Of a stretch of 64,000 bases of DNA, positions 26,626-27,999 are shown piece after piece. The DNA is from an uncultured Pelagibacteraceae bacterium (lineage in GTDB: Bacteria; Pseudomonadota; Alphaproteobacteria; Pelagibacterales; Pelagibacteraceae). The notes beneath the pieces are model-generated. The model ran no database searches, was not told where the DNA came from, and was given only the letters and a program-made list of their open reading frames with translations. The DNA lies in assembly GCA_902519945.1 (NCBI GenBank), contig CABYLY010000002.1, positions 45,356 to 109,355 of the forward strand. The letters are read 5' to 3'. Each line of letters starts with the position of its first letter. Positions within the stretch are counted from its first letter, which is position 1. The position numbers and the translations under genes are program-made.

Positions 26626-26951
26626 TGACATATATAGTTAATGAAAAGTGTATTAAATGTAAATTGATGGACTGTGTTGATGTCTGTCCTGTTGATTGTT
26701 TTTATGAAGGAAAAAATATGCTTGTAATTAAACCGGATGAGTGTATAGATTGTGGCGTTTGTGAGCCAGAGTGTCCCGTTGATGCAATCAAAGCAGACAC
26801 AGAGCCAGGAATTGAAAAATGGCTTAAGATTAATAAGGAATATTCTGAAATCTGGCCAAACATAAGTGAGAAAAAAGATCCACCATCGGATCATGAGAAA
26901 TACAAAGATGAAAAAAATAAGTTTGAAAAATATTTTAAAGAAAACGTTTAA
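26625..26951 (+). CDS. fdxA: Ferredoxin, 7Fe FdxA type
   Basis: [18 protein letters not shown]...[13 protein letters not shown]. Confidence 0.95.
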
Positions 26952-27780
26952 ACCTAAAAAAAAAGTAGCTAAGAAAAAAACCGCTAAAAAAAAAATAACT
27001 AAAATTAAAAAGACAAAAAAAGAAACACAAAAATCAAAAGTAATTAAATCAAGAAAGATTAAATCAAAAAAATTAGATAAGAAAATAACTTCAAAAAAAA
27101 CTGAAAATAAAACTGAAAATTTAAGAATTGCCAAATCAAACGAGATAAAACCTGAGATCAAAAAAATTAAAAAACAGGAAACTGAAAAAAGAGAATATAA
27201 AATTAAAGATTATATAGTTTATCCAAAACATGGCGTTGGCCAAATAACAGAATTTAAAAAAGTCAGTATTGGAGGAATAGATGTTGAAACGTATGTAATT
27301 AAATTTGAGAAAGATAAAGCATTTGGTATGGTCCCAGTAAATAAGCAATTACATTTAAGACCTTTAGCAACTATAAACCAAGTAACAAAATGTATATCGA
27401 TACTTAAAAGTAAACCTAAGATTAAAAGATCAATGTGGAGTAGACGAGCACAGGAATACGAAGCAAAAATTTCTTCTGGGAAAATCTATGAGCTTGCCGA
27501 AGTCGTAAGAGATTTAAATAAAGGAGATGATCTTATGGTTGACCAATCTTATAGCGAAAGGCAACTGTTCGAAAAGGCTTATGAAAGAATACTTACTGAA
27601 TTTCAAATTATCTTAAACCTATCATTAGAAGATACACAAAAAAAATTAGATAAAGCATTAAAAAGAAATCAAGAAAACATAAGTAAACCGCAAGCTGTTC
27701 CTCCAAAAAATGAGGAGACAAATACTAATCTACCCGAGGAAGAGCCTTTAACAGAGCCAGATGAAAATTTAGACGAATAA
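26908..27780 (+). CDS. carD: CarD/CdnL-family RNA polymerase-binding regulator with Lys-rich N-terminal extension and acidic tail
   Basis: [25 protein letters not shown]...[19 protein letters not shown]; start uncertain (ATG 26908 preferred, overlapping fdxA). Confidence 0.9.
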
Positions 27781-27781
27781 A

Positions 27782-27821
27782 AAAAACGCCTCTCACACAT
27801 AAAGTTATGAGAAGCGTTTTT
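27782..27821. terminator. Bidirectional intrinsic terminator between carD and the small basic gene
   Basis: AAAAACGCCTCTCA...TGAGAAGCGTTTTT; the single mismatch is a G-U pair on the minus-strand RNA; A/T tracts on both sides. Confidence 0.8.
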
Positions 27822-27840
27822 AATAAAGAATACTAAGTTA

Positions 27841-27918
27841 CTATCTTCTTCTTCTTTTCTTAGCTTTTTTCTTAGCTTTTTTCTTAGCCTTCTTTGCTTT
27901 TTTTCTTCTCTTAGGCAT
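27841..27918 (-). CDS. 25-aa protamine/histone-H1-like basic peptide
   Basis: MPKRRKKAKKAKKKAKKKAKKRRRR; AAGGGAG SD; tandem stops TAG-TAA; own promoter and terminator; not in ORF track. Confidence 0.8.
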   Translation of the reverse strand: MPKRRKKAKKAKKKAKKKAKKRRRR

Positions 27919-27942
27919 CTTTAGCTCCCTTTTTTAGTTAAA

Positions 27943-27999
27943 CGAATCAAAATGATTCGCTGTTATGTTATTTTTATTTTTTTATACGCGTTATGTCAA
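27943..27999 (-). promoter_or_regulatory. Promoter and 5' hairpin of the basic peptide gene
   Basis: TTGACA (27999-27994), N17, TAAAAA (27976-27971); hairpin CGAATCA-N3-TGATTCG at 27943-27959. Confidence 0.6.

What the first reader, a model, noticed from the sequence alone, without database searches (positions are those of the whole stretch)
27782..27999. Hidden stand-alone gene for a 25-aa protamine/H1-like peptide facing carD: candidate nucleoid- or ribosome-binding microprotein system
Seen: the minus-strand ORF 27918-27841 encodes MPKRRKKAKKAKKKAKKKAKKRRRR (13 Lys, 6 Arg, 4 Ala, net about +19), built on a GCTAAGAAAAAA 12-mer repeat. It has every part of a transcription unit: a perfect TTGACA -35, a 5' hairpin, an AAGGGAG SD (among the strongest in the window), a double stop and a terminator whose G-U pair favours this strand. 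A genome that otherwise overlaps its genes spends about 340 bp on it. It converges on carD, whose N-terminal arm has the same AKKK units (same 12-mer at 26968-26979). Known: AKK-rich and poly-Arg peptides condense DNA (H1 tails, chlamydial Hc1/Hc2, protamines), and basic peptides of 25-33 aa are also ribosomal proteins (eL41/eS32, bS22, bTHX). Such a peptide is missed by gene callers and destroyed by trypsin. Inference: a highly expressed, overlooked DNA-compacting or ribosome-binding factor in an ultra-small cell, possibly working with or regulated by the H1-tailed CarD.
Basis: partly seen in the sequence, partly recalled or inferred. Interest (0 to 1): 0.8.

Follow-up and report, generated by a model that had tools for sequence, protein, structure and literature searches.

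The report
Hidden polycationic mini-protein gene of SAR11
This is a real, single-copy gene, almost never annotated, found in every SAR11 (Pelagibacterales) genus examined. It encodes a 25-residue peptide made almost only of lysine, arginine and alanine, which most likely coats DNA or RNA. In the genus Pelagibacter its ribosome-binding site exactly complements the loop of the orphan 'rhtB' RNA, so that RNA probably controls how much peptide is made.

Summary
The ORF at 27918..27841 (minus strand) is a real gene.

**Conservation.** In 76 loci from 10 genera and 2 families of the order, the same unit always faces carD. The unit is a consensus -35, a 5' hairpin at fixed spacing, a strong SD, ATG, a Lys/Arg/Ala ORF of 17-91 aa, and a terminator. 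The 50 distinct ORF sequences have 22 different lengths and none is frame-broken. Synonymous changes predominate. Lys codons are chosen so that long A-runs are broken up.

**Annotation and relatives.** Protein catalogues almost never hold it. No family model matches it. Nothing like it turned up in about 395 other alphaproteobacteria.

**The rhtB RNA.** The 13-nt apical loop of the orphan rhtB RNA (Rfam RF01814) is the exact reverse complement of the gene's SD, spacer and start codon. That RNA lies just upstream of a LysE-type exporter gene. The mini-gene's start region is the best non-self target of the loop in the whole genome. The loop occurs once in 70 of 73 near-complete Pelagibacter genomes.

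**Function.** Untested. A non-specific polyanion binder like a histone H1 tail or a protamine fits best. The repeat-driven length variation argues against a fixed ribosomal slot. No expression data could be obtained.

**Earlier notes.** The scan found this gene family, and the rhtB link, before on other SAR11 genomes. I retested both here.

The parts
27994..27999 (-). -35 promoter hexamer (perfect sigma-70 consensus)
   Evidence: Present in all 76 orthologous loci: identical in 74, with its last base changed in L084 and L085. Part of the pattern found once per genome in 202/226 and 24/27 genomes.
27970..27976 (-). A/T-rich -10 region, 17-18 nt after the -35. The transcription start is inferred a few nt upstream of the hairpin.
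   Evidence: The block is conserved across the genus. The start site is inferred from spacing, not measured.
27942..27960 (-). 5'-proximal stem-loop of the mRNA, probably a stabiliser at the extreme 5' end
   Evidence: A hairpin starts 34-36 nt after the -35 in all 10 genera. Its 5' arm is conserved but its pairing partners and register differ between genera, so the structure is kept while the sequence changes.
27926..27932 (-). Shine-Dalgarno sequence, unpaired, 6 nt before the ATG
   Evidence: The six-base core plus spacer plus ATG is invariant in the genus loci examined, except one (L079) that has one G fewer.
27907..27930 (-). Translation-initiation region complementary to the apical part of the rhtB RNA. 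The first 14 nt pair perfectly, then 1 mismatch, then 7 more pairs.
   Evidence: Duplex energy is -33.9 kcal/mol, the best non-self site among 251,776 genome windows.
27841..27918 (-). Coding sequence of the 25-aa Lys/Arg/Ala peptide, including the first stop codon
27838..27840 (-). Second in-frame stop codon
27782..27821 (.). Bidirectional intrinsic terminator shared with carD, more stable on the mini-gene strand
   Evidence: The stem changes by compensatory substitutions between genera.
26866..27780 (+). Convergent carD/cdnL gene with a Lys-rich N-terminal tail. It is an invariant neighbour; a functional link is not shown.
   Evidence: carD is convergent in 76 of 76 loci, even where the upstream neighbour differs.
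27891..27957 (+). Weak sub-threshold Rfam 'rhtB' match on the opposite strand. It mirrors the antisense complementarity and is not a second rhtB gene.
   Evidence: (26.8 bits against a gathering score of 55).

Best explanation
The ORF is a real, translated, single-copy gene of the order Pelagibacterales (SAR11).

**The transcript.** It is about 190 nt and compact. It has a consensus -35 promoter, a hairpin at the very 5' end (inferred to protect the mRNA), an unpaired strong SD, a 17-91 codon ORF (25 here), two stops, and a terminator tuned to this strand.

**The product.** A peptide of charge about +19 with no hydrophobic core. Its conserved features are a basic N-terminal motif, a variable number of Ala-Lys-Lys-Lys-type units, and an Arg-rich end.

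**Most likely mechanism (inferred).** It binds polyanions through charge alone: chiefly DNA, and possibly RNA. It would neutralise and compact them as histone H1 tails, protamines and chlamydial Hc1/Hc2 do. This would suit a cell with very little volume.

**Control in the genus Pelagibacter.** The 13-nt apical loop of the rhtB RNA is the exact complement of the SD, spacer and start codon. That RNA is a terminator-like hairpin sitting 11 nt before the start of a LysE-type exporter gene. The RNA most likely pairs with the mRNA and blocks ribosome binding, so that peptide synthesis is gated. IhtA does this for hctA in Chlamydia.

**Shown here:** the sequences, their conservation, their single-strandedness in predicted folds, and their complementarity.

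**Inferred:** transcription, translation, binding targets, and the direction and sign of the RNA control.
For: **It is a gene.**
- 76 loci in 10 genera and 2 families keep promoter, hairpin, SD, ATG, a Lys/Arg-rich ORF and convergent carD.
- The 50 distinct ORF sequences have 22 lengths differing by single codons. None has a frame break, although the sequence is rich in A-runs that are prone to slippage.
- In same-length pairs, synonymous codon differences outnumber non-synonymous ones 33 to 22. About one fifth synonymous would be expected (my own estimate from the codon composition).
- AAG makes up 46% of Lys codons, against 13.7% genome-wide (P about 0.004). The longest A-run is 7, against 9.35 expected (P about 0.05).
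- The SD is unpaired and strong SDs of this type are rare in the genome.
- The terminator is stronger on this strand in 47 of 50 sequences.

**Polyanion binder.**
- Composition and charge.
- Length changes by repeat gain and loss, as in Hc2 (PMC2848022).
- The nearest Pfam-labelled Atlas cluster (score 0.90, which the tool flags as often chance) has the Hc2 family on 23% of its members. This likeness reflects composition only.

**RNA control.**
- rhtB RNA scores 83.4 bits at G000 C1:129767-129849.
- Its loop, which is also the Rfam consensus loop, is the exact reverse complement of the initiation region.
- The 12-mer core occurs only at these two places in the genome.
- The mini-gene site is the top non-self target of 251,776 windows.
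- The loop is present once in 70 of 73 near-complete genomes of the genus.
- The RNA was not found in 10 genomes of the 9 other genera, and their initiation regions differ.
- In one genome, a G lost from the SD is matched by a C lost from the loop.
- Precedent for such control: PMC4355289.
Against: - There is no expression or protein evidence of any kind. The one SAR11 start-site table I found was truncated in storage.
- The binding target is inferred from composition alone. PPK1 is present, so polyphosphate is another possible partner.
- HU/IHF genes are present, so the cell is not short of classical nucleoid proteins.
- Covariation between loop and initiation region is weak. There is one compensatory case, and three genomes carry the shortened loop with an unchanged SD. 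Those pairs remain compatible.
- The gene is conserved in nine genera where no rhtB RNA was found. The RNA link is therefore a genus-level layer and not part of the core function.
- The direction of control could be the reverse, with the mRNA acting on the exporter leader.
Confidence: 0.55

Rival explanations
1. It is a ribosome-associated microprotein, a lineage-specific counterpart of eL41, bL37, bS22 or bTHX, that fills an rRNA groove.
For: Its size, extreme basicity and strong expression signals resemble those proteins. Such peptides are routinely missed by annotation.
Against: - Length varies from 17 to 91 aa by repeat gain and loss, even within one genus. That does not fit a fixed rRNA pocket.
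- No match to any Pfam, NCBIfam or PDB sequence at permissive thresholds.
- It is not in a ribosomal-protein operon.
- L36 and an L34-like ORF are present, so nothing is being replaced.
- Trans-RNA control of one ribosomal protein would be unusual.
Confidence: 0.15
2. The ORF, its mRNA, or both are mainly a regulatory or sensing device for basic amino acids. A Lys/Arg-rich reading frame would report Lys/Arg supply, and its initiation region would pair with the leader hairpin of the LysE-type exporter gene. Alternatively the peptide serves as a small Lys/Arg nitrogen store.
For: - 76% of codons are Lys or Arg, as in attenuator leader peptides.
- There is exact complementarity to the terminator-like leader, which lies 11 nt before the LysE-type gene and has no SD of its own.
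- From general knowledge, LysE-family carriers export lysine and arginine.
Against: - The gene, its strong SD, its stabilising hairpin and the peptide termini are conserved in nine genera where no rhtB RNA was found.
- Pairing is confined to the loop and inner stem, and leaves the 9-bp lower stem and the U-run intact. An effect on termination is therefore not obvious.
- Nothing lies downstream on the mini-gene strand that could be attenuated.
Confidence: 0.12
3. It is a polyphosphate-binding polycation, working like the H1-like protein AlgP of Pseudomonas, that organises polyphosphate granules and not DNA.
For: PPK1 is encoded. Lys/Ala-rich H1-like AlgP associates with polyphosphate granules (PMC9239181). 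Charge-driven binding does not distinguish between polyanions.
Against: No specific evidence. PPK2 was not found. There is no synteny with phosphate genes.
Confidence: 0.08
4. The ORF is not translated. The conserved unit is a small non-coding RNA whose purine-rich body only happens to be open.
For: No protein evidence exists. The repeat unit is 12 nt, so repeat slippage alone would keep the frame. The RNA has conserved structure at both ends.
Against: - Lengths differ by single codons, never by 1-2 nt.
- There is a synonymous excess and biased Lys codon choice.
- An invariant, optimally spaced, unpaired SD and ATG, with tandem stops in this genome.
- The peptide's N- and C-terminal motifs are conserved across families while the DNA has diverged.
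Confidence: 0.05

Closest known systems
Chlamydial histone-like proteins Hc1 (HctA) and Hc2 (HctB), with the small RNA IhtA that represses hctA translation (PMC4355289, PMC2848022)
   Same: - A Lys/Ala-rich bacterial polycation.
- Length polymorphism by gain and loss of Lys-rich repeat units, as in Hc2.
- A trans-encoded RNA whose loop is complementary to the translation-initiation region, as with IhtA and hctA.
   Different: - No sequence homology: the Pfam Hc1 and Hc2 models do not match.
- The size is 17-91 aa. Hc2 is 165-237 aa (PMC2848022).
- The complementarity is 13-14 nt and covers the SD as well as the AUG. IhtA pairs over 6-7 nt around the AUG only.
- The organism is free-living with no developmental cycle.
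- The RNA lies in the leader of an exporter gene.
C-terminal tail of eukaryotic linker histone H1, and protamines (PMC11331069)
   Same: Composition (Lys, Ala, some Pro/Thr; an Arg cluster), intrinsic disorder, and protamine-like size. The expected charge-driven condensation of DNA is also shared.
   Different: There is no globular winged-helix domain and no homology. It is a bacterial gene with its own promoter. The similarity is convergent composition and not membership.
Bacterial H1-like repeat proteins: AlgP of Pseudomonas (PMC9239181) and, from general knowledge, BpH1 of Bordetella and the Lys-rich tail of mycobacterial HupB/MDP1
   Same: Lys/Ala(/Pro) repeats with variable repeat number, binding to polyanions (DNA or polyphosphate).
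   Different: Those are much larger proteins or tails on folded domains. Here the repeat tract is the whole protein.
Very small basic ribosomal proteins (eL41, bL37, bS22, bTHX)
   Same: 20-35 aa, extremely basic, often unannotated.
   Different: As I recall, those have fixed lengths and conserved sequences. This peptide varies five-fold in length and matches none of the family models available.
rhtB RNA motif, Rfam RF01814 (Meyer et al. 2009, PMC2704228)
   Same: The RNA partner proposed here is a bona fide member (83.4 bits). It sits in the published context, next to a LysE-type translocator gene.
   Different: The paper left its function open and noted that the loop is well conserved. No target was proposed there. 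The mini-gene is a candidate target.

Membership tests
Chlamydial Hc1 / Hc2 histone-like proteins (Pfam PF07432, PF07382) | Significant match to the family profile | tested here: not met
   hmmscan at E up to 10 gave no such hit for the 25-aa peptide or for the 40-, 85- and 89-aa orthologues. The only link is an Atlas feature likeness to a cluster where 23% of members carry HC2.
Chlamydial Hc1 / Hc2 histone-like proteins (Pfam PF07432, PF07382) | DNA binding and nucleoid condensation | not testable with these tools
   Needs the peptide and binding or condensation assays.
Linker histone H1 | Globular winged-helix domain flanked by basic tails | tested here: not met
   The whole product is 25 aa of low-complexity basic sequence with no domain hit.
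Small basic ribosomal proteins (eL41, bL37, bS22, bTHX) | Match to a ribosomal family model or to a chain in a solved ribosome | tested here: not met
   No Pfam, NCBIfam or PDB sequence hit at E up to 10. Composition filters may hide weak matches.
Small basic ribosomal proteins (eL41, bL37, bS22, bTHX) | Constant length and sequence among relatives, as expected for a fixed rRNA site | tested here: not met
   22 different lengths, from 17 to 91 aa, among 50 distinct orthologous ORFs.
Small basic ribosomal proteins (eL41, bL37, bS22, bTHX) | Stoichiometric presence in purified ribosomes | not testable with these tools
   Needs ribosome purification, mass spectrometry or cryo-EM.
Trans-acting antisense RNA / target pair (IhtA-hctA type) | Complementarity between an exposed RNA loop and the SD/start region of the mRNA | tested here: met
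   The 13-nt apical loop plus its closing base pairs with 14 nt of SD, spacer and start codon. Both are unpaired in predicted folds. The site is the top-ranked target genome-wide.
Trans-acting antisense RNA / target pair (IhtA-hctA type) | Co-occurrence and co-variation of the two sites across genomes | tested here: inconclusive
   Both sites are near-invariant in the genus and the RNA was not found in other genera. There is one compensatory change (G118). Three genomes have a shortened loop and an unchanged SD; those pairs remain compatible.
Trans-acting antisense RNA / target pair (IhtA-hctA type) | The RNA is expressed and changes translation of the target | not testable with these tools
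   No read data could be obtained. Needs toeprinting or reporter assays.
rhtB RNA motif (Rfam RF01814), for the partner RNA | Score above the curated gathering threshold and the published genomic context | tested here: met
   83.4 bits against a threshold of 55 at G000 C1:129767-129849. It lies immediately upstream of a LysE-type translocator gene (PMC2704228).

The most novel reading that the evidence does not exclude
SAR11 may run a minimal chromatin-like switch. A protamine-sized polycation, present in every genus examined, would set the compaction or charge balance of the nucleoid (and perhaps of RNA). In Pelagibacter its synthesis would be gated by the leader RNA of a Lys/Arg-type exporter gene, so that basic-amino-acid or growth status is coupled to genome compaction. 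This would give the orphan rhtB RNA, known since 2009 from about 1,250 marine metagenome copies, its first target and function.
Probability: 0.2. Interest if true: 0.85.

Novelty: new variant of a known kind. Interest (0 to 1): 0.68.

Why it matters
SAR11 is among the most abundant organisms in the ocean, and its streamlined genome has been annotated and mined for two decades. This gene has one of the strongest ribosome-binding sites in the genome yet is absent from protein catalogues, so part of the SAR11 proteome has been invisible. Trypsin-based proteomics would also miss it, because it would cut the peptide to pieces.

If the peptide is an abundant polycation, it bears on several open questions:
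- how a very small cell packs and neutralises its DNA and RNA;
- nitrogen budgets, since Lys and Arg are nitrogen-rich;
- how far bacterial "histone-tail-like" proteins can be reduced.

The exact antisense match offers a directly testable function for an orphan conserved RNA. It also links that RNA to an amino-acid exporter gene.

Tried and rejected
- I did not run structure or complex prediction. The window's peptide is below the size limit, and a helix prediction would not separate the hypotheses.

**Searches that found nothing**
- Rfam at a permissive threshold gave only sub-threshold hits around the locus.
- Pfam, NCBIfam and PDB sequence searches gave nothing for the peptide or its longer orthologues.
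- Exact look-ups of 12 orthologous peptides in the 15-billion-protein collection all missed.
- A word-seeded search with the 85-aa form found only 2 called proteins. An exhaustive phmmer search of 1.84 billion representatives found none. The ESM Atlas does hold the 85-aa form, as a 'hypothetical protein'.
- A class-wide pattern search in about 395 other alphaproteobacteria gave one hit, which proved to be chance. The pattern recovers only about half of the genes inside the order, so this is 'not found', not 'absent'.
- Literature searches linking SAR11 with H1-like, lysine-rich or small proteins found no description of this gene.
- The Red Sea start-site study has a Pelagibacter table, but the stored supplement is cut before it.

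**Leads that dissolved**
- I searched for SD variants to test covariation. Most extra hits were chance matches inside coding genes such as the PRPP synthetase gene.
- A poorly chosen repeat pattern for paralogues found nothing. A composition scan of the own genome showed a single such ORF.
- I considered that the SD of this genus derives from former N-terminal codons of the longer sister-family form. The alignment places SD on SD, and a simple 8-codon insertion or deletion after the start codon explains the difference, so I dropped the idea.

Full report
**1.

The minus-strand ORF 27918..27841 encodes 25 residues: 13 Lys, 6 Arg, 4 Ala, 1 Pro and the initiator Met. Around it are:
- a perfect consensus -35 at 27999-27994, with an A/T-rich -10;
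- a 17-19 nt stem-loop at 27943-27959;
- a purine SD at 27932-27926, 6 nt before the ATG;
- two stop codons in tandem;
- a long hairpin plus T-run at 27821-27782.

The SD-plus-ATG combination is the only one of its type in the window and one of 15 in the 1.0-Mb genome. The 12-nt repeat unit occurs twice in the ORF and once in the carD tail, against 0.09 expected. The spacer between carD and the acyl-CoA synthetase gene is 338 bp.

The window is contig 2 of a 1.0-Mb, 78%-complete genome with 29% G+C. The coordinates of the rhtB element in one relative match those published for Pelagibacter ubique HTCC1062 (PMC2704228). The genus is therefore Pelagibacter.

**2. It is a gene under selection for its reading frame.**

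A DNA search of 60 relatives brought back 30 loci of the same genus. 28 of them had an ATG-initiated ORF of 22-33 codons with the same start and end motifs, convergent with carD; in three or four loci an upstream in-frame start lengthens the listed ORF, and the SD-proximal ATG gives 21-30 codons. The other two loci were cut at contig ends.

The sister family has, at the same place, a 40-91 aa form with eight extra N-terminal residues and more repeats. The six other genera of the same family have 21-50 aa forms.

In total, 76 loci from 10 genera carry the full unit, and carD is convergent in all 76. This holds even in the sister family, where the upstream neighbour is a tRNA-binding-domain gene and not the acyl-CoA synthetase gene.

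Coding signatures:
- The 50 distinct ORF sequences have 22 lengths that differ by single codons and never by 1-2 nt, although the sequence is made of A-runs.
- Same-length pairs show 33 synonymous against 22 non-synonymous codon differences. From the codon composition I estimate about one fifth would be synonymous by chance.
- AAG supplies 46% of Lys codons here, against 13.7% in 695 long ORFs of the genome (simulation P about 0.004). The longest A-run is 7, against 9.35 expected (P about 0.05). This fits selection against slippage.

**3. The transcription unit is conserved as structure.**

The promoter-plus-hairpin pattern occurs once per genome in 202 of 226 genomes of the genus and 24 of 27 of the sister family. 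The reversed control pattern gives almost no hits.

In every genus a hairpin begins 34-36 nt after the -35, which by spacing puts it within a few nt of the transcript's 5' end. Its 5' arm is conserved. Its 3' partner and register differ between genera. From general knowledge, 5'-terminal stem-loops protect bacterial mRNAs such as ompA from 5'-end-dependent decay, so I infer a stabiliser.

In this genus the SD is unpaired. In the sister family and two other genera, a short pyrimidine element upstream can pair with the SD.

The terminator stem changes by compensatory substitutions between genera. It is more stable on the mini-gene strand in 47 of 50 distinct sequences, with means of -23.2 and -17.8 kcal/mol.

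**4. It is invisible to catalogues and confined to the order, as far as searched.**

- Twelve orthologous peptides are absent from the 15-billion-protein collection.
- The 85-aa form finds two called proteins by word search and none by exhaustive phmmer.
- The ESM Atlas holds the 85-aa form as 'hypothetical protein'.
- No Pfam, NCBIfam or PDB match exists.
- A start-motif pattern found nothing real in about 395 other alphaproteobacterial genomes. Its sensitivity inside the order is only about one half.
- The own genome holds one such ORF.
- Papers linking SAR11 with such a protein were not found.

**5. The rhtB RNA.**

Earlier notes of this scan claimed that the ribosome-binding site complements the loop of the rhtB RNA. 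I tested this here.

I had already seen, independently, that the 14-nt SD-spacer-ATG string occurs at only one other place in the genome. That place is a bona fide rhtB RNA: Rfam RF01814, 83.4 bits against a threshold of 55, at G000 C1:129767-129849 on the plus strand.

Structure and context:
- In the Rfam structure the RNA is a 9-bp lower stem, an internal loop, a 4-bp inner stem and a 13-nt apical loop.
- That loop, in this genome and in the family consensus, is the exact reverse complement of the mini-gene's SD, spacer and first two bases of the start codon. The closing base pairs with the third.
- The hairpin is followed by nine T. Two bases after that T-run comes the ATG of a LysE-type translocator gene (PF01810), which has no SD of its own. 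A DUF2805 gene diverges upstream.

Strength of the match:
- I slid the apical 26 nt over both strands of the whole genome, 251,776 windows. The mini-gene site is the best non-self duplex, at -33.9 kcal/mol (14 perfect pairs, one mismatch, seven more pairs). The genome mean is -7.25 with sd 3.63.
- The next sites, at -30.6 and weaker, are gapped duplexes and none is at a gene start; two lie on a contig that looks like rRNA and two read as coding sequence.
- The 12-nt core occurs only at these two places.

Distribution:
- The loop occurs once in 70 of 73 genomes of the genus that are at least 97% complete. 65 have the full loop, 4 have one C fewer, and 1 has a C-to-U change.
- The Rfam model finds nothing in 10 genomes of the nine other genera, and their SD-spacer sequences differ.
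- The initiation region is identical in the genus loci examined, except in G118, where one G is missing from the SD. G118 is also one of the four genomes with one C missing from the loop.
- Three other genomes have the shorter loop with an unchanged SD. Covariation is therefore suggestive but weak.

Meyer et al. noted that the loop is well conserved and left the function open.

**6. What it most likely does.**

The steps shown are sequence, conservation, complementarity and predicted accessibility. The rest is inference.

A peptide of charge about +19, with no hydrophobic or aromatic residue, can hardly do anything but bind polyanions. The repeat number changes freely within a genus and five-fold across the order. 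This fits a non-specific coat (DNA first, possibly RNA or polyphosphate) better than a fixed site in the ribosome.

The genome has three HU/IHF-type genes and PPK1. GapR and PPK2 were not found, though the genome is incomplete. L36 and an L34-like ORF are present.

Overproduction of such a polycation should be harmful. That makes tight translational control plausible, and an exposed C-rich loop covering the SD and AUG is a classical way to achieve it. The chlamydial histone-like Hc1 is controlled in the same manner by IhtA.

The partner RNA is the leader of a LysE-type exporter gene, and from general knowledge this family includes lysine and arginine exporters. That suggests a tie to basic-amino-acid status, but this is speculation. 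The reverse direction of control, with the mRNA acting on the exporter leader, cannot be excluded.

**7. Comparison and novelty.**

By composition and presumed action it belongs with bacterial H1-like polycations and protamines. By sequence it is a member of none (membership table).

What is new:
- the extreme reduction, since the repeat tract is the whole protein;
- its presence in every genus examined (10 genera, 2 families) of a globally dominant lineage;
- its absence from annotation;
- the candidate RNA partner.

I class it as a new variant of a known kind.

**8. Limits.**

No expression data could be obtained. All function is inferred. The covariation test has one informative case. The sister family could not be searched for its own antisense partner.

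The same gene family and the rhtB link were noted earlier by this scan on other SAR11 genomes. Here they were retested on this genome and on independent samples of relatives.

Noticed in passing
G000 contig C1:129767-129849 (locus L089:1501-1583), outside the window: The orphan rhtB RNA (RF01814) is a hairpin followed by nine T. Two bases after that T-run comes the start codon of a LysE-type translocator gene with no SD of its own. It looks like a leader or attenuator that could also release a short RNA. Its antisense strand carries an SD, an ATG and a 24-codon ORF, which I take to be a by-product of the complementarity.
   Followed up: partly
Loci L031-L050, L083, L084 (5' leaders of the orthologous gene in other genera): In the sister family and in two other genera, the leader holds a short pyrimidine element that can pair with the SD in predicted folds. 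This is a possible cis translational switch. The window's genus lacks it and has the rhtB RNA instead.
   Followed up: partly
window 26866-27190 (+): carD/cdnL starts with about 100 residues of Lys-rich low complexity ahead of the CarD domains and ends in an acidic tail. The tail contains the same 12-nt unit as the mini-gene (26968-26979). The sister family's CarD is of similar length with its domains at the same offset (about 100 residues ahead of them), but I did not read that stretch.
   Followed up: no
G000 contig C1, about 121800-123600 (+), outside the window: A large ORF of more than 410 aa ends in about 130 residues of Lys/Ala/Thr/Pro repeats. It accounts for the extra DNA matches to the mini-gene repeat elsewhere in the genome.
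   Followed up: no
Loci L036, L037, L042, L044-L046, L048, L049 (sister family): The 85-aa form is identical in amino-acid sequence across many species-level genomes, while flanking DNA differs. The +1 frame of the repeat tract is also open, which is a composition effect.
   Followed up: no
Locus L070:1827-3056: In the sister family the upstream neighbours are a tRNA-binding-domain gene and a sigma-70-family gene, not the acyl-CoA synthetase gene. Only the carD side of the synteny is invariant.
   Followed up: partly
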